Below, piece by piece: positions 30-55,532 of a DNA stretch of 64,000 nt. Source of the DNA: Escherichia phage vB_VIPECOMC06. The first letter of the stretch is position 1. The number at the start of each line of letters is the position of its first letter. The notes under the pieces were generated by a model that worked only from the letters and a program-made list of their open reading frames with translations, had not been told where the DNA came from and did no database searches. The DNA is taken from sequence record PQ416618.1; one strand, 5' to 3'. Position numbers and translations under genes: made by a program.

Positions 30-302
30 ATGTCTAAAGAACAAACCGAACTGGCCGAAGCCGTAGAAAAAATCTATGCAGCTATTGAGGCTGCCAAAGA
101 AATTGCTGATAAACAAAACACAACATTCGACTTGTATCCAGCTTATGGTATGGGTGGAACCTATCATTCACCTGGACAACTTAAAGCCGATCTTGAACGT
201 TGTACAAAAAACGGCTATGCTGAATGGGCTGACGTTTACCAATACGACTACAACCTGAGCCTCGAAACCGGTGGTTGGATTGCATCTTCTCACACTTGCT
301 AA
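30..302 (+). CDS. hypothetical protein (90 aa)
   Basis: ORF with AAGGAA SD before ATG; C-terminal GWIASSHTC resembles the C-terminus of the next ORF. Confidence 0.45.
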   Translation: MSKEQTELAEAVEKIYAAIEAAKEIADKQNTTFDLYPAYGMGGTYHSPGQLKADLERCTKNGYAEWADVYQYDYNLSLETGGWIASSHTC

Positions 303-311
303 GGAAATCAT

Positions 312-509
312 ATGTCTCGTGAATTAGATTGTGCTGTACGTACGGCAGTAGCTGCTCTGGAAAACCTGTTCCAAATTGCAACAGAAGAACGCGAAGAAGT
401 TACATTATGGATTGAAGATAACGCAGGTCTGAATCTCCAGAATGCAATCTCGGTATCAAATAATAGTATTACTGTTCAAGGCTGGGTATCATCTAGTTAT
501 TCTTGCTAA
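312..509 (+). CDS. hypothetical protein (65 aa), paralog of preceding ORF
   Basis: Near-identical SD/start context (AAGGAAATCATATGTCT) and similar C-terminus QGWVSSSYSC. Confidence 0.45.
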   Translation: MSRELDCAVRTAVAALENLFQIATEEREEVTLWIEDNAGLNLQNAISVSNNSITVQGWVSSSYSC

Positions 510-2243: not shown

Positions 2244-2642
2244 GTGAAACATATTTGCCAAGAATTTAAAATCGACCAGCCAGCAGGTATTATCGTGAAC
2301 AGATACATTAATGGATATCAACCTATCGATGAAGTAATACGAACAACCCAAGCTGAGCTTGAAAAGTTTTTCAATAAGTGCCAATGGATAACAGGATGGA
2401 TTATATTTGTACCATCGGTATGGTTTTTTAGTACTAAAGTAAGTGCCTTTGCCGTACTAGATATTATCGCCATCTTATTAGCATCTATTATCATAAGTGT
2501 TGTTGGTGGCATCATTGGCGGCGGTACCGCCGCCATCATTATTAATCTTATTAAAAGTAGTTTACAAGAACGTAAAGACAAGATAAAAGCCAAGAATAAT
2601 GAAGTTGAACGTTTTATTACCGAATGCAGGAATTTGAGATGA
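2244..2642 (+). CDS. predicted membrane protein (132 aa)
   Basis: Hydrophobic core with Gly-rich helix VVGGIIGGGTAAIII; start may be downstream of the track start. Confidence 0.45.
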   Translation: MKHICQEFKIDQPAGIIVNRYINGYQPIDEVIRTTQAELEKFFNKCQWITGWIIFVPSVWFFSTKVSAFAVLDIIAILLASIIISVVGGIIGGGTAAIIINLIKSSLQERKDKIKAKNNEVERFITECRNLR

Positions 2643-3097
2643 TGAGTAAGAAAAATAAAGTGAAAGAACTATCAGCCGGTATTATTTTCCTTACCGAAGA
2701 TAAAGAATTATTCATGGGGCGTGTAACTGGTTCTCGTCCTAAAGGTTCTTTAGCTCATCGGTGGGATATTCCTAAAGGTCGTGTCGAGCCCGGCGAATCT
2801 CCTATTGAAGCCGCTATTCGTGAATGTGAAGAAGAAACTGGGTTTACACAATATGACCCTGCCTTCCTGAAAGACCTAGGTGAACATCGTTACTCAGACA
2901 ATAAGAATATTCATCTGTTCCTATATACCATCCCTGTAGAGCACGAGCAATTCAGAAACAGTGTTTGTAATTCCTATCATACGTTCCCAGACGGACGACA
3001 GATTCCTGAATTTGATGCATTCGCTTTAATTAAACCTTCTCAATGGGAATATGTAATGGGCAAATCATTATATAAGGTGCTCACTACCCTCCTATAA
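2639..3097 (+). CDS. nudE: Nudix hydrolase
   Basis: Nudix box GRVEPGESPIEAAIRECEEETGF; sits immediately upstream of lysozyme as in T4 (e.1); ATGA overlap with upstream ORF. Confidence 0.8.
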   Translation: MMSKKNKVKELSAGIIFLTEDKELFMGRVTGSRPKGSLAHRWDIPKGRVEPGESPIEAAIRECEEETGFTQYDPAFLKDLGEHRYSDNKNIHLFLYTIPVEHEQFRNSVCNSYHTFPDGRQIPEFDAFALIKPSQWEYVMGKSLYKVLTTLL

Positions 3098-3956: not shown

Positions 3957-4370
3957 ATGACTCGTATCAATTTAACACTTGTTTCTGAACTGACCGACCA
4001 ACATCTTATGGCGGAGTATCGTGAATTACCACGCGTATTTGGTGCAGTCCGTAAACATGTTCAAAACGGTAAACGTGTAAAGGATTTTAAAATCTCTCCA
4101 ACATTTATCTTAGGCACAGGACACGTAACATTCTTTTACGACAAACTCGAATTTTTACGTTTACGTCAAATCGAGCTAATCGCTGAATGCTTGAAACGTG
4201 GTTTCAAAATCAAGGACACGACTGTCCAGGATATTTCCGACATCCCTGCAGAATTTCGTAATAATTATGTCCCGTCCGAAGCGTCCATTGCGATAAGTCA
4301 AGCACGCTTAGACGAAAAAATTGCCCAACGTCCTACTTGGTACAAATACTATGGTAAATCAATTTACTAA
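3957..4370 (+). CDS. denV: endonuclease V (pyrimidine dimer DNA glycosylase)
   Basis: [32 protein letters not shown] matches the T4 endo V family; ATG at 3957 after GGAGG SD. Confidence 0.9.
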
Positions 4371-6773: not shown

Positions 6774-7136
6774 ATGAAAGCATATCAAATTCTTGAAGGC
6801 ACGCATAAAGGTACTATTTATTTTGAAGACGGTATTCAAGCACGAATTATTGTCTCTAAAACTTTTAAAGAAGACGCTATTGTAGACCCGGAAATTTTCT
6901 ACGGTTTGAATGCTCGTGAAATTGAAATTGAACATCAACCTAAAGTTAAAATTGAAGGTGGTCAACACCTGAACGTTAACGTTCTGCGTCGCGAAACTCT
7001 GGAAGATGCAGTTAAGCATCCAGAAAAATATCCACAGCTGACCATCCGTGTATCTGGTTATGCAGTTCGCTTTAACTCTCTGACTCCAGAACAGCAGCGC
7101 GACGTTATCGCTCGTACCTTTACTGAGAGTCTATAA
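6774..7136 (+). CDS. autonomous glycyl-radical cofactor (GrcA/YfiD-like)
   Basis: C-terminal glycyl radical motif [25 protein letters not shown]; ~120 aa as in GrcA and T4 Y06I. Confidence 0.8.
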
Positions 7137-13542: not shown

Positions 13543-14528
13543 TGAAAACAATTATGAAAGGCTACTTTGGTAGCCACCTTTATGGAACGTCTACTCCTGA
13601 ATCTGACGTCGATTTTAAAGAAATTTATGTCCCTCACGCTCGTGATATCTTGACCGGTAACGTTAAAGAACACATGAGCAAGAACACGAATAACACATCT
13701 TCTAAGAACACAAAAGACGACGTGGACCATGAGTTGTATAGTCTCAAATATTTCTTTAAACTAGCTGCAGACGGTGAAACCGTCGCATTAGATATGCTTC
13801 ACACTCCACAAAGTCTAGTAGTTAAATCTGATTTGCCTGATGTATGGAAGTATATTCAAGATAACAGGTCTCGTTTCTATACTACTAACATGAAATCTTA
13901 TTTAGGGTATGTCCGTAAGCAAGCTTCTAAATATGGTGTCAAGGGTTCTCGACTGGCTGTTCTTCGTCAAGCCCTTAAACGTTCTAATGAATGGGGACAA
14001 TACTTTGATAATGGTGCAGTAATTCGTTTATCACATATGAAGAATGTTCTGCCTATAGGTGAATTTGCTTCATGGGTTGAAACAGAAAACGAGAAAACAG
14101 GTAAGCAAACATTCTATAATCTGTTAGACCGTAAATTCCAAGACACATTAACCAATAAAGAGTTCAATGCCATCCTGGTTAAACTGGAAGAGAACTATGG
14201 TGAACGTGCTCGTAAGGCAGAAGCTAACGAAGGTATTGACTGGAAAGCATTGAGTCATGCATGTCGTGGTGGACTTCAATTATTGGAAATTTACAAAACC
14301 GGCGACCTGGTTTACCCACTTCAGGATGCTCCATTTATTCTCGATGTTAAGCTTGGTAAACATACTTTTAAAACTGTACAAGAATTCCTAGAAGATATCG
14401 TTGACCAAGTTGAACATGCGTCAGAACAAGCTGCCAAGAACGGTATGCAACAAAAAGTAGATATGAGTTTCTGGGATGACTTCCTTGAACAGGTCTATCT
14501 CGAAAATCATAATTCTTACTATAAATAA
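13539..14528 (+). CDS. predicted pol-beta-superfamily nucleotidyltransferase (329 aa)
   Basis: N-terminal GSHLYGTSTPESDVDF (GS...SDxD nucleotidyltransferase signature); ATGA coupling. Confidence 0.55.
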   Translation: MMKTIMKGYFGSHLYGTSTPESDVDFKEIYVPHARDILTGNVKEHMSKNTNNTSSKNTKDDVDHELYSLKYFFKLAADGETVALDMLHTPQSLVVKSDLPDVWKYIQDNRSRFYTTNMKSYLGYVRKQASKYGVKGSRLAVLRQALKRSNEWGQYFDNGAVIRLSHMKNVLPIGEFASWVETENEKTGKQTFYNLLDRKFQDTLTNKEFNAILVKLEENYGERARKAEANEGIDWKALSHACRGGLQLLEIYKTGDLVYPLQDAPFILDVKLGKHTFKTVQEFLEDIVDQVEHASEQAAKNGMQQKVDMSFWDDFLEQVYLENHNSYYK

Positions 14529-16997: not shown

Positions 16998-17993
16998 ATG
17001 AGCATTACATCTGATGCGGTAAAACATGAAATTAACGGTTTATGTGCTTCACAGATTAAAGTGTGGTTTAAAGACCATAATGATCGCAGAGCACTTAATT
17101 ATGAGCAAATTGCTATCCAAGTTCATCAATTACTGACTAGTAAATTTGATTTTCATATGCCGTCTGAAATCTATACTAATCTACCGCGAGCGCTTATTAA
17201 AGCGTGTAAAGGTTATGGAAAATCAATGGCTGATGGAATCTTCAGCGCGCTGAATAAACTTAACGTTCTGTCGATGATTAACTCTAACAACATCCTGCGT
17301 AATCTAGGACGTACTGATTTGTTCGGTCGTGAACAGTGTAAAATGCCTTTGAAATGGATTGTTGCTCATCTTAACGAGAACCAAACACGTTTTATGGCTG
17401 TATCAGCACGCTTACAAATGGGCCTAGATCGTCAGATGAACTTTAAAACTCATCCACGTTATTCAGGTTCAACAGACTTTTATAAATGTGAGCTTCAAAA
17501 GGTTGCAGGTAAAACTGTCTTAGTAGTTCGTGTAACGTTTGAAGGACGACGTCAAGGATATTTTGACCTAATCGGCTCTGGTCTTAAACATTGTGGATTT
17601 ATTGACGAAGTTGATATCAAGCGAGACAGCATTGGATACCGTATTGGATATGTTTGTACTCTTAAAGAAGAGATTTCAGGACCAGTACCAGGACTAAAAG
17701 ACGTTAGATATAAAGACGAGCTCGTTGAAGAAATAAAAGAAGTTGAATATGATATCAACCAAGAAGATGCTCTTAAAGACCTTATTGATGAACTAAACCA
17801 AGACGTTATTCCGGTTCAGAAATTTGAATCAAAACATGCTGAGCAAATCAAATACTTTGAAGCTTTGATTAACGAACTTAATGTAACTATTCAACAGACT
17901 GACGATGAAATCTCGCGATTAGCAGGCTTAAACGGTAAAAATAAAACGGAACGAGCTAATCTTATTCAGGTAGTAAAACTTCTTAAGGAATGA
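16998..17993 (+). CDS. hypothetical protein with C-terminal coiled coil (331 aa)
   Basis: SD GAGGAAA; heptad-like C-terminus. Confidence 0.5.
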   Translation: MSITSDAVKHEINGLCASQIKVWFKDHNDRRALNYEQIAIQVHQLLTSKFDFHMPSEIYTNLPRALIKACKGYGKSMADGIFSALNKLNVLSMINSNNILRNLGRTDLFGREQCKMPLKWIVAHLNENQTRFMAVSARLQMGLDRQMNFKTHPRYSGSTDFYKCELQKVAGKTVLVVRVTFEGRRQGYFDLIGSGLKHCGFIDEVDIKRDSIGYRIGYVCTLKEEISGPVPGLKDVRYKDELVEEIKEVEYDINQEDALKDLIDELNQDVIPVQKFESKHAEQIKYFEALINELNVTIQQTDDEISRLAGLNGKNKTERANLIQVVKLLKE

Positions 17994-49907: not shown

Positions 49908-50156
49908 ATGGAATTATTCGTAGCTAGTTCAGTAGCTGTTTTAATCGCAGGTATTGGTTCAATCATCATTTACATGTTGCCTTGGGTAATCGCACTTATT
50001 CGTGGCACAAAAAGCACAACAGCAATCTTTTTTGTATCTTTACTCTTTAACTGGACGATGATTGGTTGGATTGGAACTTTAATTTGGTCTATCGTTGCCG
50101 AAAAGAAATCTGCTCAGCAGCCTCAACAAGTAATTATTATTCGCGAAAAAGAATAA
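49908..50156 (+). CDS. small inner-membrane protein (82 aa)
   Basis: Two hydrophobic helices; size and topology reminiscent of superinfection-immunity-type proteins. Confidence 0.45.
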   Translation: MELFVASSVAVLIAGIGSIIIYMLPWVIALIRGTKSTTAIFFVSLLFNWTMIGWIGTLIWSIVAEKKSAQQPQQVIIIREKE

Positions 50157-50219: not shown

Positions 50220-50513
50220 ATGAAAAAGTTATCATTGGCAGCAATCTTACTTGCAGTATCATGTGCACCGGCTCCAGTTACGGCAGGTTATGATAAAGAC
50301 CTCTGTGAGTGGTCAATGACTGCAAATCAAGAAGATGTTGAACAACAAATCTTCTCTGATATCATGAACATCACTAAACGAGACCGTCCTAATATGGTTA
50401 ATAAAGTTGTTGAACAACTTAAGTCTGGCGGTATCATGCAGTACAATTATGTTTTGTATTGTGACCCTAATTTCGATAACAAAGATATCGTAACCGAAAT
50501 CACAGGTGAATAA
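50220..50513 (+). CDS. sp: spackle-like periplasmic protein (97 aa)
   Basis: Signal peptide MKKLSLAAILLAVSCAPAPVTAG; mature part GYDKDLCEWSMT...YNYVLYCD; size and locus (41-61 interval) as T4 sp. Confidence 0.45.
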   Translation: MKKLSLAAILLAVSCAPAPVTAGYDKDLCEWSMTANQEDVEQQIFSDIMNITKRDRPNMVNKVVEQLKSGGIMQYNYVLYCDPNFDNKDIVTEITGE

Positions 50514-50514
50514 T

Positions 50515-51165
50515 ATGATTTATTATATGCACAAAAATGCGCCATTTAAATATGGTAAATTTCCTAATGCACAATGTTATAATATAACGCCGAACGAAAA
50601 TAATAACGGATATCATATTGGTGTAATTTTTGTAATTGTTAAAGATAACGAAATCGTTGCCTGGGCAGATTTTAAAGGTACAACGTATGATGTTAATCCA
50701 GTGCCTTTCACATATTACAATATAATGGATTTGGCATATGATTATAATTGGTTTAATCACGACGCGTTGGCTCATATTGAAGGTGTAGGATTTGACATCT
50801 CTTATTCTAGCTATTCATTATGTCCTATGAGCCGAGCTCACGGTAAAGATGCATCATATCTTTCATTTCGGAAACGTGTAAACTTCAAACGTAGTACAGA
50901 GTATGTCGGTGGACTCTTTGTTAAAGATAATAAAATAACCCGTATTAGTTATCCTTTAAGTGTAGGTCAAAAAGATGTTGATGTTGATTTAGACTTAACC
51001 GAAAATAACATTAATCATATTGCTTCTGTATATTTTGATATCGATGAAAAAATTGTAGTGTGTGGATACGAATTACCACCTGAAGAAAAGGCCGAAACAA
51101 TTGAAGTCGAATTAGAAATTTCTGTTGATGACCAAATATTTAATGCATTTATGAATCGAGGTTAA
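50515..51165 (+). CDS. hypothetical protein (~216 aa)
   Basis: ATG at 50515 (track start is a GTG overlapping the upstream stop). Confidence 0.45.
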   Translation: MIYYMHKNAPFKYGKFPNAQCYNITPNENNNGYHIGVIFVIVKDNEIVAWADFKGTTYDVNPVPFTYYNIMDLAYDYNWFNHDALAHIEGVGFDISYSSYSLCPMSRAHGKDASYLSFRKRVNFKRSTEYVGGLFVKDNKITRISYPLSVGQKDVDVDLDLTENNINHIASVYFDIDEKIVVCGYELPPEEKAETIEVELEISVDDQIFNAFMNRG

Positions 51166-51890: not shown

Positions 51891-52913
51891 ATGGCTGAAT
51901 GGATAGATAATGAATTTGCTTATCGTGCGTTTTCTCACCTACCTCGTTTTAGACAAATCAATAATTCAAGCACATTTAAATTAACATTTCGATGTCCAGT
52001 TTGTGGCGACTCCCAGACAGATGCAATGAAAGCTCGCGGATGGTATTATGGCGGTACTCCTGGTAATGTACATTGCTATAATTGTCAATACCACAATACA
52101 ATTTCCGGATACTTAAAAGAGTATGATGAAGAGCTTTATCGCGAATATCTAATGGAAGTTCGTAAAGAAAAAGCTAGAATGGAACCAAAGATTGAAAAGG
52201 TTCCTGAACATAAACCAGAGCCGGAGAAAAAGACTATAAATTCTTTGCCGTCTTGTTCTCGTCTGGACAAGCTGCCTGAAGAGCATCCTATTGTGAAATA
52301 TGTTAAGTCTCGATGCATTCCTAAAGAATCATGGAACAGATTATGGTTCACATTAGAATGGCCTAAATTGGTCAACAAGATTCAACCCGGCACATATAAG
52401 AAAGAGATTCCTGAACCGCGTTTGGTTATTCCTATTTTTAATAAAGACGGGAAGGCTGAGTCATTCCAAGGACGTGCACTTCGTAAAGATGCTCCTCAGA
52501 AATATATCACTATTAAAGCGTTTGAGTCTGCAACAAAAATTTATGGTGTTGAACGTGTTAAGGAAGGAGACGTCTGGGTAATGGAAGGCCCTATTGATAG
52601 TTTATTCATACCCAATGCAATAGCTATTACAGGCGGCTCGATAGATTTAGATGTGGTACCATTTAAAGAACGTCGGGTATGGGTAATGGATAATGAACCT
52701 AGGCATCCGGATACTATAGCTCGCATGAAGCGATTAGTTGATGCAGGCGAACGTGTCATGTTCTGGGACCGAGCTCCGTGGAGATCAAAGGATGTGAATG
52801 ATATGGTGATGAAAGAAAATGCAACACCACAAGAAATTTTAGAATATATGAAACAGAATATTTCAAGTGGGTTGCATGCTAAAATGAGATTATCTCGTTA
52901 TTCGAAGATTTAA
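51891..52913 (+). CDS. 61: DNA primase gp61
   Basis: Zn ribbon CPVCGDS...CYNC followed by TOPRIM-like region (VMEGPIDS); 340 aa. Confidence 0.9.
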   Translation: MAEWIDNEFAYRAFSHLPRFRQINNSSTFKLTFRCPVCGDSQTDAMKARGWYYGGTPGNVHCYNCQYHNTISGYLKEYDEELYREYLMEVRKEKARMEPKIEKVPEHKPEPEKKTINSLPSCSRLDKLPEEHPIVKYVKSRCIPKESWNRLWFTLEWPKLVNKIQPGTYKKEIPEPRLVIPIFNKDGKAESFQGRALRKDAPQKYITIKAFESATKIYGVERVKEGDVWVMEGPIDSLFIPNAIAITGGSIDLDVVPFKERRVWVMDNEPRHPDTIARMKRLVDAGERVMFWDRAPWRSKDVNDMVMKENATPQEILEYMKQNISSGLHAKMRLSRYSKI

Positions 52914-53107
52914 ACAAGCCCTATAATAGCAAAGGCCAAATCAACTACAGTATCCAATGGAACAGAAGGAACTATAATACCATGGGCAACTAACAATGGT
53001 GCAATCCCGAAGTTCCACGAAATAATGCCACCTACAACTATTGCAGCGATAGCAGTTTTCTTTTTATTGCCTTTAATAGCGTTGATTAACGATGGAAGTT
53101 TAAACAT
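52910..53107 (-). CDS. small hydrophobic membrane protein (65 aa)
   Basis: Only convincing minus-strand gene: strong SD (AAGGAG, 5-nt spacer) before ATG on the minus strand; lies in the 61-56 intergenic gap. Confidence 0.5.
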   Translation of the reverse strand: MFKLPSLINAIKGNKKKTAIAAIVVGGIISWNFGIAPLLVAHGIIVPSVPLDTVVDLAFAIIGLV

Positions 53108-53196
53108 AATATCTCCTTAGTTACCTTATTATTTATTACGCTTTATAAAATTAATGTTAGAATTAACTCTCTTATACTGAATTGAAAGGAAAAATA

Positions 53197-53718
53197 ATGG
53201 CGCACTTTAACGAATGTTCACAACTTATTTCTGGTGTTGATAAAGCAGAAGAAGCTTATTTTAATGCTCTGATTCACGAAGATAAAGACCCACTGCAGGT
53301 AATGCTTGATATGCAGAAATCTTTACAAGTTCGTCTGGCAAATGACAAGCCTGAACATAACAAACATCCTGATGAATTGGCCACTGCTGGTGATGTTGTT
53401 GATTGGCTGCGTAATCAGAAAGATTATATTGATGATGAATTCCGTGAACTGTTGACTTCACTTGGCGGTATGAGCAATGGTGAAAAAGCCGCTAGCTCTG
53501 TATGGAAACCGTGGAAGGCACAACATGCTGAATATCGAAATCGTCGTATCGATGAACTGTCTCCTGAAGACCAGCTTGAAATTAAATTCGAGATGATTGA
53601 TATCCTCCACTTTGTCCTGAACATGTTCCAAGGTCTGGGTCTTTCTGCTGAAGAAATCTTTAAACTGTATTACTTGAAAAACCAACACAACTTTGAACGT
53701 CAGGATAATGGTTACTAA
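53197..53718 (+). CDS. 56: dCTP pyrophosphatase (dCTPase) gp56
   Basis: MAHFNECSQLISGVDKAEE...EIFKLYYLKNQHNFERQDNGY matches the T4 gp56 pattern; ATG at 53197. Confidence 0.85.
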   Translation: MAHFNECSQLISGVDKAEEAYFNALIHEDKDPLQVMLDMQKSLQVRLANDKPEHNKHPDELATAGDVVDWLRNQKDYIDDEFRELLTSLGGMSNGEKAASSVWKPWKAQHAEYRNRRIDELSPEDQLEIKFEMIDILHFVLNMFQGLGLSAEEIFKLYYLKNQHNFERQDNGY

Positions 53719-55191: not shown

Positions 55192-55371
55192 ATGGACTTG
55201 ATGAGTATGTTTGATGAGCCTGAAGTTGAGGCTCCTAAAGTGCATCGTAGTGAACTTGTTGATGAACTAGATAGTATTATACAACGTCACGGCTTTAGTT
55301 TACCTGTTGAAGCCCTGAAAGACCTTGCCTCTTATTATGATGACCCTCCACCATGGAGTCCTTGGAAATGA
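55192..55371 (+). CDS. hypothetical acidic protein (~59 aa)
   Basis: ATG at 55192. Confidence 0.35.
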   Translation: MDLMSMFDEPEVEAPKVHRSELVDELDSIIQRHGFSLPVEALKDLASYYDDPPPWSPWK

Positions 55372-55532
55372 AAGAGAAATTTAAAGAGAAATTCTTACTA
55401 GAAATCAAGGAAAAAGACTTTGAGACATGGTATCGAATGGTGAAAGGGTTGACATTGCTTTTTAAAGCATCGTTATTCATGTTAGAACAACCTGGACCTG
55501 ATGGACCTTTAGTAGGAAAGCTTAAAAAGTAG
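55368..55532 (+). CDS. hypothetical small protein (54 aa)
   Basis: ATGA coupling; below track cutoff. Confidence 0.3.
   Translation: MKEKFKEKFLLEIKEKDFETWYRMVKGLTLLFKASLFMLEQPGPDGPLVGKLKK

What the first reader, a model, noticed from the sequence alone, without database searches (positions are those of the whole stretch)
52910..53107. Lone minus-strand gene for a 65-aa hydrophobic protein between primase and dCTPase
This is the only convincing reverse-strand gene in 64 kb. It has a near-ideal SD (AAGGAG, 5-nt spacer) and an AT-rich late-promoter-like ATAAATAA upstream on the minus strand. It encodes a two-helix membrane protein in the interval where T4 carries dam; possible roles include lysis or superinfection exclusion.
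Basis: seen in the sequence. Interest (0 to 1): 0.55.

Follow-up and report, generated by a model that had tools for sequence, protein, structure and literature searches.

The report
Overlooked late membrane-protein gene of T-even phages
The lone reverse-strand ORF is a real, conserved gene for a 65-residue membrane protein, apparently switched on only late in infection; it is already catalogued as a "hypothetical protein" in hundreds of T4-like phages, missing from the reference T4 annotation, and of unknown function.

Summary
Window 52910..53107(-) is an intact 65-aa ORF with an AAGGAG Shine-Dalgarno 5 nt from the ATG. AATAAATA, the commonest variant of the T4 late promoter TATAAATA, lies 22 nt upstream. 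It is the only opposite-strand gene in about 66 kb of early genes.

The window is a Mosigvirus (RB69-like). The ORF is the ortholog of RB69ORF029w and belongs to PHROG 2024 (unknown function). Homologs sit at the same place, just 3' of primase gene 61 on the opposite strand, in at least seven Tevenvirinae genera.

T4 itself has a 66-aa homolog at 17738..17938 between dam and 61. The reference records AF158101 and NC_000866 do not annotate it.

- **Coding:** codon-level substitution patterns show purifying selection.
- **Promoter:** the NATAAATA box is conserved across lineages and is perfect in two of them.
- **Protein:** the product looks like an N-in, single-pass inner-membrane protein with an invariant Trp-Asn in the helix.
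- **Family:** it has no similarity to any characterised family. It diverges fast, has subtypes, and occurs as tandem paralogs in some phages.

Function is untested. My best guess is a late envelope or lysis-timing modulator, at about 0.3. The gene is known as a database entry, so interest is modest.

The parts
52910..53107 (-). CDS for a 65-aa small membrane protein (MFKLPSLINAIKGNKKKTAIAAIVVGGIISWNFGIAPLLVAHGIIVPSVPLDTVVDLAFAIIGLV). It is the ortholog of RB69ORF029w and a member of PHROG 2024.
   Evidence: ORF. phrog_2024 hit at E 1.9e-27, full length. Purifying selection. Syntenic homologs in 7 genera.
53113..53118 (-). Shine-Dalgarno AAGGAG, 5 nt upstream of the ATG.
   Evidence: Read from the sequence. 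A GGAGG-type SD is present in every ortholog.
53130..53137 (-). Late-promoter box AATAAATA, the T4 TATAAATA consensus with A at -13.
   Evidence: NATAAATA lies 16-22 nt before the ATG in all lineages but one, and is a perfect TATAAATA in Dhakavirus and Kanagawavirus. A(-13) occurs at 9 of 50 listed T4 late promoters (PMC2988020). Promoter activity was not tested.
53108..53124 (-). Predicted 17-nt 5' UTR, with the transcription start near 53124.
   Evidence: Inferred from T4 late-promoter geometry, where the box spans -13 to -6 (PMC1524935). Not measured.
52910..52913 (.). TTAA stop/stop overlap with the convergent primase gene 61 (51891..52913, +).
   Evidence: The same 4-nt overlap occurs in T4, Dhakavirus, Kanagawavirus and TH41. 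No intrinsic terminator lies downstream, so the late transcript should run antisense into gene 61 (inferred).
53139..53163 (+). Context: divergent MotA-type middle promoter for dCTPase gene 56. It has a CGCTTTA MotA-box-like element at 53139..53145, a 12-nt spacer, and TAGAAT at 53158..53163. It sits back-to-back with the late box.
   Evidence: Read from the sequence. Nolan 2006 predicted the equivalent RB69 middle promoter Pm:16038 in the ORF029w/56 intergenic region. Inferred.
53197..53718 (+). Context: gene 56 (dCTPase), divergent neighbour.
   Evidence: phrog_173 hit at E 1.6e-45.

Best explanation
It is a genuine accessory gene of T-even phages (subfamily Tevenvirinae) that is expressed only late in infection. 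It encodes a small inner-membrane protein.

Shown:
- An intact, selectively constrained 65-aa ORF with a strong SD.
- A conserved NATAAATA box upstream.
- Conserved position and opposite orientation just 3' of primase gene 61.
- Membership of PHROG 2024.
- A homolog in T4 that the reference annotation lacks.

Inferred:
- Early and middle T-even transcription all runs on the other strand. The gene can therefore only be transcribed from its own late promoter, by gp55-RNA polymerase with gp33 and the gp45 clamp on replicating DNA. The start is near 53124.
- The transcript has no terminator and continues antisense into gene 61.
- The Lys-rich amphipathic N-terminus (net +5) stays in the cytoplasm.
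- Residues about 19-41 span the inner membrane.
- The acidic, hydrophobic roughly 20-residue tail lies at the periplasmic face.

The invariant Trp31-Asn32, Pro37, Gly43 and Pro47 in and just after the helix suggest that it works by helix-helix association, either with itself or with a larger membrane partner.

Committed functional guess (about 0.3): it tunes the late envelope programme, that is lysis timing or lysis inhibition, by binding holin T or RI or by perturbing the membrane.

The confidence given here applies to the core claim: a real, late, membrane, accessory gene.
For: Gene is real:
- Window vs RB69: pN 0.007 against pS 0.143. Mosigvirus vs T4: pN 0.33 with pS about 0.75, which is saturated.
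- Variable sites by codon position are 16/3/34.
- 692 phage records carry a tblastn match, and 685 of them cover at least 80% of the query.
- All syntenic ORFs hit phrog_2024 at E 1e-15 to 1e-31.

Late expression:
- The box AATAAATA lies 22 nt before the ATG. NATAAATA is conserved in Mosig-, Tequatro-, Gapriver-, Dhaka- and Kanagawavirus, in the K65 group and in ESCO47, while the flanking sequence diverges.
- In this window the motif is depleted and otherwise marks e, rI.1, rI, gene 49, soc and one secreted ORF.
- From the literature: all early and middle T4 transcripts share one polarity, and A(-13) is the commonest promoter variant (PMC2988020; PMC1524935).

Membrane protein:
- AF2 gives pLDDT 79.6 with helices at 3-11, 15-41 and 51-62.
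- Across the family there is one hydrophobic core. The N-flank carries +2 to +7 net charge and the C-flank 0 to -2.
- TMHMM gave 21-41 with no signal peptide for RB69ORF029w.

Accessory and fast-evolving:
- There are four subtypes with only 20-30% identity, while primase stays above 60% identical.
- Tandem paralogs occur in TH41 and ESCO47, and CJ20 carries a remnant.
- The gene is absent at the 61/56 junction of Krisch-, Slopek-, Tulane- and Lazarusvirus.
Against: - No transcript, protein or phenotype data were found.
- T4's own box is GATAAATA and SEA1's is imperfect (TATTAAATA), so promoter strength is uncertain.
- Nolan 2006 did not list a late promoter at this site in RB69.
- Topology is predicted only. 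In the Mosigvirus sequence the C-terminal 19 residues are as hydrophobic as the first segment, so a hairpin cannot be excluded.
- Nothing ties the protein specifically to lysis. It shows no similarity to any holin, antiholin or spanin family and is not adjacent to lysis genes.
Confidence: 0.8

Rival explanations
1. It is a late-acting membrane factor in conflict with other phages or with host defence. It might exclude or resist superinfecting phage late in the cycle, or block a membrane-targeting abortive-infection effector.
For: - Fast divergence into subtypes, tandem paralogs and lineage-specific loss are typical of arms-race genes.
- The neighbourhood is rich in such genes: sp, imm, dmd and the 61.2/AdfA homolog.
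Against: - The known T4 exclusion genes imm and sp are early genes, and a late-only gene acts too late for primary exclusion (background knowledge of T4).
- There is no hit to PF14373 (Imm).
- The PADLOC library was not searched and no anti-defence family was tested.
- Its divergence rate equals that of the antiholin RI (54% Mosigvirus vs T4 for both), so fast evolution does not discriminate between the two readings.
Confidence: 0.25
2. It is itself a holin or pinholin that forms lesions in the inner membrane. One homolog (OE5505) carries the name 'Holin' in UniProt.
For: - It is small, late and membrane-embedded, with polar residues in the helix (Asn32, plus Asp in subtype B).
- The UniProt name appears.
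Against: - No holin Pfam, NCBIfam or PHROG family matches.
- The basic region is N-terminal, and the C-terminus is hydrophobic and acidic rather than the charged cytoplasmic tail typical of holins.
- Family-wide there is only one clear transmembrane segment.
- T-even phages already have holin T.
- The 'Holin' label is unsupported by any evidence that I could find.
Confidence: 0.08
3. It is a membrane-bound helper of late morphogenesis, for example prohead initiation at the inner membrane.
For: Late expression together with the structural genes, and membrane location.
Against: - It is restricted to Tevenvirinae and is variable in copy number and sequence, whereas morphogenesis genes are core and conserved.
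- The frameshifted copy in T4_ev240, if real, suggests it is dispensable.
Confidence: 0.07
4. The hydrophobic segment is a cleavable signal peptide, and the product is a roughly 22-residue periplasmic peptide.
For: There is a basic n-region and a conserved small-x-small motif (A-x-G, as in VAHG, AASQG and AATKG) after the hydrophobic core.
Against: - The hydrophobic core is about 23 residues, too long for a Sec signal.
- It holds the invariant Trp-Asn, which argues for a functional helix.
- SignalP was negative for RB69ORF029w.
Confidence: 0.04
5. It is not a protein gene. The interval is only the 3' UTR of gene 61 or a source of antisense RNA, and the ORF is fortuitous.
For: No terminator follows the ORF, so a late transcript would be antisense to gene 61.
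Against: - The codon-position bias and low dN/dS are in this frame.
- The ORF is kept open over saturated synonymous divergence.
- SD and start codon are conserved.
- The plus-strand RNA folds worse than shuffled sequence (z +2.16), and there is no Rfam match.
Confidence: 0.03

Closest known systems
RB69ORF029w / PHROG 2024 / pVOG VOG1982 (uncharacterised T-even phage protein family)
   Same: Orthologous. The sequence is nearly identical, with the same position between genes 61 and 56, the same opposite orientation and the same length.
   Different: Nothing distinguishes the window's gene from this family. The family itself has no assigned function.
T4 RI antiholin (rI)
   Same: - It is a small envelope protein of T-even phages with a hydrophobic N-proximal segment.
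- In this window it also has an AATAAATA box about 26 nt before its ATG, embedded in an early region.
- Mosigvirus-to-T4 divergence is the same, at 54%.
   Different: - There is no sequence similarity.
- By background knowledge, RI has a SAR domain followed by a roughly 75-residue periplasmic domain that binds holin T. This protein has only about 20 residues beyond the helix.
- rI is on the early-gene strand.
T4 Imm (PF14373, superinfection immunity)
   Same: It is a small inner-membrane protein of T-even phages. A true Imm lies 3 kb away at 49908..50156.
   Different: - The ORF has no PF14373 hit.
- By background knowledge, Imm has two transmembrane helices and is an early gene on the other strand.
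Class II holins / pinholins (e.g. phage 21 S68)
   Same: About 65-70 residues, membrane-embedded and made late.
   Different: - There is no family match.
- The charge distribution is reversed, with a basic N-terminus and a non-charged C-terminus.
- A second transmembrane helix is not conserved.
- It is not next to an endolysin.
T4 dam
   Same: It lies between genes 61 and 56 in T4.
   Different: It is unrelated. In T4, dam sits between this ORF's homolog and gene 56, so both are present. This window and many Tequatroviruses simply lack dam.

Membership tests
PHROG 2024 (uncharacterised T-even small protein) | Full-length match to the family profile | tested here: met
   E 1.9e-27 over 1-65 of 65 positions. 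Orthologs from T4, Dhaka-, Kanagawa-, Gelderlandvirus and K65 also match.
PHROG 2024 (uncharacterised T-even small protein) | Conserved locus: opposite strand, immediately 3' of primase gene 61 | tested here: met
T4-type late gene | TATAAATA-type box about 20-30 nt upstream of the start codon, with no -35 element | tested here: met
   AATAAATA lies 22 nt before the ATG and is conserved across genera. The A(-13) variant is common (PMC2988020).
T4-type late gene | gp55/gp33/gp45-dependent transcription after DNA replication starts | not testable with these tools
   Needs RNA data. It is indirectly implied, because early and middle transcription use only the other strand.
Holins (any class) | Match to a holin sequence family | tested here: not met
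   No Pfam, NCBIfam or PHROG holin hit. Foldseek against BFVD finds only its own homologs.
Holins (any class) | Transmembrane segment(s) followed by a highly charged, usually basic, cytoplasmic C-terminal tail | tested here: not met
   The basic cluster is N-terminal (net +5). The C-terminal flank has net charge 0 to -2 and ends in hydrophobic residues.
Holins (any class) | Lethal, triggerable hole formation that releases or activates endolysin | not testable with these tools
   Needs expression experiments.
Imm superinfection immunity (PF14373) | Match to PF14373 | tested here: not met
   No hit for the ORF, whereas the real Imm at 49908..50156 scores E 1.5e-15.
Spanins | Long periplasmic domain (i-spanin) or lipobox Cys (o-spanin) | tested here: not met
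   Only about 20 residues follow the helix, and the window protein has no Cys.
Structured RNA or terminator element | Stable or conserved RNA fold, or an Rfam match | tested here: not met
   z-score +2.16, no Rfam hit, no terminator-like site.

The most novel reading that the evidence does not exclude
T-even phages, T4 included, carry an overlooked late locus of one or two paralogous small membrane proteins. This locus would be a so-far-unknown component of the late envelope programme: a regulator of holin T timing or lysis inhibition, or a late membrane-level exclusion or anti-defence factor. It would have gone unnoticed because the reference T4 annotation has no gene between dam and 61.
Probability: 0.3. 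Interest if true: 0.6.

Novelty: already known. Interest (0 to 1): 0.35.

Why it matters
For this window, the finding resolves to an already catalogued hypothetical gene, so it is not a discovery in itself.

Its value is as a pointer. A well-conserved, strongly translated, late-only membrane protein lies in the middle of the T-even early region. It has never been studied, and it is absent from the canonical T4 records (AF158101 and NC_000866) that most T4 omics and genetic screens use as their gene list. Such screens will therefore have missed it.

If it modulates lysis timing or late-stage conflict with other phages or host defences, it would add a player to one of the best-studied phage systems. 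It is also easy to test in T4.

Tried and rejected
**Distant homologs**
- An exhaustive HMMER profile search of 1.84 billion representatives, with a Mosigvirus plus Tequatrovirus profile, gave only 6 hits, all T-even. That profile was too narrow to reach subtypes B-D.
- A later word-indexed search with a broader profile gave 120 clusters, all about 56-74 aa and all from T-even-like phage contigs.

**Characterised families**
- Pfam, NCBIfam and PDB sequence searches gave nothing significant. The best hits were noise such as YwcE, Ldr toxin and an acetylcholine-receptor transmembrane helix.
- Foldseek of the AF2 model against viral structures found only its own homologs. I did not run further fold searches, because a short helical model gives non-specific matches.

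**Regulatory and RNA readings**
- The sigma-70 promoter and terminator scan found nothing relevant on the minus strand.
- The RNA-element reading was rejected.

**Literature**
- Searches for RB69ORF029w, PHROG 2024, T4 Ribo-seq or unannotated ORFs, and T4 small late membrane proteins found no study of this gene.
- The T4 genome review (PMC150520) is not held in the library.

**Other**
- Co-occurrence with rI was looked at, but it only reproduces phylogeny and was not used as evidence.
- A paralog elsewhere in the window was sought with a family HMM and not found.

Full report
**What is there**

Window 52910..53107(-) is an ATG-initiated ORF of 65 codons.
- On the minus strand it is preceded by AAGGAG (53113..53118), 5 nt from the ATG.
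- AATAAATA (53130..53137) lies 22 nt from the ATG.
- Its stop overlaps the stop of the convergent primase gene (51891..52913, +) by four bases (TTAA).
- The dCTPase gene starts divergently at 53197.
- The flanking genes are confirmed as primase (phrog_47, E 1e-101) and dCTPase (phrog_173, E 2e-45).

**Origin of the window**

The region is about 98% identical to RB69-like Mosigvirus phages such as NHEP10, F2 and HX01.

In the close relative SQ17, about 130 CDS are annotated over the equivalent 66 kb. Only the homolog of this ORF is on the opposite strand. My own ORF scan agrees. The other two minus-strand ORFs that my ATG-only test left largely uncovered, 2318..2539 and 55295..55480, lie under plus-strand ORFs that start with GTG.

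**It is a real gene**

The protein matches PHROG 2024 (unknown function) over its full length at E 1.9e-27.

tblastn finds it in 692 phage records, always beside the primase gene. It was annotated as RB69ORF029w in the RB69 genome and as 'hypothetical protein' almost everywhere else.

Pairwise Nei-Gojobori estimates show purifying selection in this frame:

| Pair | pN | pS |
|---|---|---|
| window vs RB69 | 0.007 | 0.143 |
| T4 vs HMD-9 | 0.033 | 0.173 |
| Mosigvirus vs T4 | 0.33 | about 0.75 (saturated) |

Variable sites by codon position are 16/3/34 within Mosigvirus and 6/1/9 within Tequatrovirus.

The plus-strand RNA of the interval folds worse than shuffled controls (z +2.16). It has no Rfam match and no terminator. 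The '3' UTR only' reading is therefore rejected.

**Distribution and the T4 point**

An opposite-strand ORF of 63-74 aa lies directly 3' of gene 61 in these lineages:
- Mosigvirus
- Tequatrovirus
- Gaprivervirus
- Dhakavirus
- Gelderlandvirus
- Kanagawavirus
- a Klebsiella phage group (K65)

All of these hit PHROG 2024. tblastn also finds it next to primase in the Enterobacter phages Entb_45 and vB_EclM_CIP9, Klebsiella phage vB_KM5a1-KLB31 and Edwardsiella phage PEi20.

At the same junction it is absent in Slopekvirus, Krischvirus, Tulanevirus and Lazarusvirus, where gene 61 abuts the next plus-strand gene. Those genera were checked only at this locus and by tblastn.

T4 itself has a 66-aa homolog with 54% identity and a GGAGG SD, at record positions 17738..17938. 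It lies in the 309-bp gap between dam and gene 61.
- Neither NC_000866 nor AF158101.6 annotates anything there.
- The exact T4 protein has no NCBI or UniProt accession in the 15-billion-protein collection.
- Pyrodigal calls it in a newer T4 assembly.

T4 therefore has both dam and this gene. Many Tequatroviruses lack dam and have the same 61 / ORF / 56 arrangement as this window.

**Expression**

The upstream box is conserved while the surrounding sequence diverges:

| Box | Lineages |
|---|---|
| AATAAATA | Mosigvirus; teqskov and HMD-9 |
| GATAAATA | T4 |
| CATAAATA | Gaprivervirus, K65, ESCO47 |
| TATAAATA (perfect) | Dhakavirus, Kanagawavirus |
| TATTAAATA (imperfect) | Gelderlandvirus SEA1 |

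In every case the box lies 16-22 nt before the ATG.

In this 64-kb window WATAAATA is under-represented, with 8 sites against 19.1 +/- 3.9 in shuffles. Seven of the eight sites lie 22-32 nt upstream of an SD+ATG:
- e lysozyme
- rI.1
- rI
- an 87-aa ORF with a signal-peptide-like N-terminus
- gene 49
- soc
- this ORF

The motif is therefore a specific marker here.

Geiduschek and Kassavetis (PMC2988020) state three relevant points:
- The T4 consensus is perfect at 32 of 50 listed sites.
- A replaces T at -13 at nine sites.

Nolan et al. (PMC1524935) note that T(-13) is poorly conserved in T4 relatives.

It follows that a gene on this strand can only be a late gene (inference). Nolan et al. did not list a late promoter at this site. 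They did predict a middle promoter (Pm:16038) for gene 56 in the same intergenic region. In the window this corresponds to CGCTTTA, a 12-nt spacer and TAGAAT at 53139..53163, back-to-back with the late box.

**The protein**

AlphaFold2 (12-sequence alignment, pLDDT 79.6) gives helices at 3-11, 15-41 and 51-62. Family-wide there is one strongly hydrophobic core. The N-flank carries net charge +2 to +7 and the C-flank 0 to -2, which suggests an N-in orientation. TMHMM in Nolan's supplement gave one helix at 21-41 with no signal peptide for RB69ORF029w.

Only M1, W31, N32, P37, G43, P47 and G63 are invariant across subtypes. A buried Trp-Asn, plus an Asp in subtype B, points to helix-helix association.

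In the Mosigvirus sequence alone, the last 19 residues are as hydrophobic as the first segment.

**Evolutionary behaviour**

The family splits into four subtypes that share only 20-30% identity, while primase stays at 60-75%.
- TH41 (Gaprivervirus) has subtype A followed by subtype B.
- Its relative CJ20 has A plus a 118-nt remnant.
- ESCO47 has B followed by A with an ATG/stop overlap, under one CATAAATA box.

This is accessory-gene behaviour. The Mosigvirus-to-T4 divergence (54%) equals that of the antiholin RI.

**Function**

No characterised family matches by sequence or fold. The single 'Holin' label in UniProt (OE5505) has no visible support. The protein also fails the usual holin charge pattern.

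I commit to the following: a late, N-in, single-pass inner-membrane accessory protein that acts through transmembrane-helix association.

| Proposed role | Probability |
|---|---|
| modulation of the late envelope or lysis-timing programme | about 0.3 |
| late exclusion or anti-defence role | about 0.25 |
| a true holin | about 0.08 |
| a morphogenesis helper | about 0.07 |

These roles are guesses from anatomy, timing and evolutionary pattern. None was tested.

**Verdict**

The gene is already in the databases as a hypothetical protein (RB69ORF029w, PHROG 2024). Its absence from the canonical T4 annotation, its conserved late promoter and its complete lack of study make it a reasonable small experimental target. 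It is not a major surprise.

Noticed in passing
window 14520..14527 (+) and the ORF starting about 14560: A perfect TATAAATA box lies 32 nt upstream of an 87-aa ORF with a signal-peptide-like N-terminus (MKKLVIGLFAVMMAFSVGATTGAAGG...). It looks like another small late-promoter-driven envelope or secreted protein inside the early region.
   Followed up: no
window, whole 64 kb: WATAAATA is depleted (8 sites against 19.1 +/- 3.9 expected). Seven of the eight sites precede real genes: e, rI.1, rI, the 87-aa ORF, gene 49, this ORF and soc. Only 6815..6822(-) has no ORF behind it.
   Followed up: partly
window 49908..50156 (+): An Imm superinfection-immunity homolog (PF14373, E 1.5e-15) lies between dmd and sp here. 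From memory, imm in T4 lies near genes 42/43, so this would be a relocated exclusion gene next to spackle.
   Followed up: no
L006 (phage TH41) 2501..2907; L022 (ESCO47) 2501..2894; L005 (CJ20) 2699..2816: Tandem paralogs of the family occur in the order A then B in TH41 and B then A in ESCO47, where the start and stop overlap. CJ20 keeps only a 118-nt remnant of the second copy.
   Followed up: partly
L023 (T4_ev240, LR597657.1) about 300..320: A one-base deletion in the A6 run of the Lys-rich codons frameshifts the ORF in this evolved T4 line. It could be a real loss-of-function mutation or a homopolymer sequencing error.
   Followed up: partly
L001 (HX01 RefSeq) 2830..2907, 4052..4129, 4136..4249: The RefSeq annotation of HX01 carries very short opposite-strand CDS (78-114 nt) that other annotations of near-identical phages lack. 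They are probably spurious calls.
   Followed up: no
window 50506..51165 (+): The 61.2 homolog upstream of primase belongs to the AdfA family (PF23813), according to the gene table of the ESCO47 locus. This Pfam assignment was not re-checked on the window sequence.
   Followed up: no
window 53139..53163 (+): A MotA-box-like CGCTTTA, a 12-nt spacer and TAGAAT look like the middle promoter of gene 56, placed back-to-back with the late box of the ORF. The equivalent RB69 site was predicted by Nolan 2006 as Pm:16038.
   Followed up: partly
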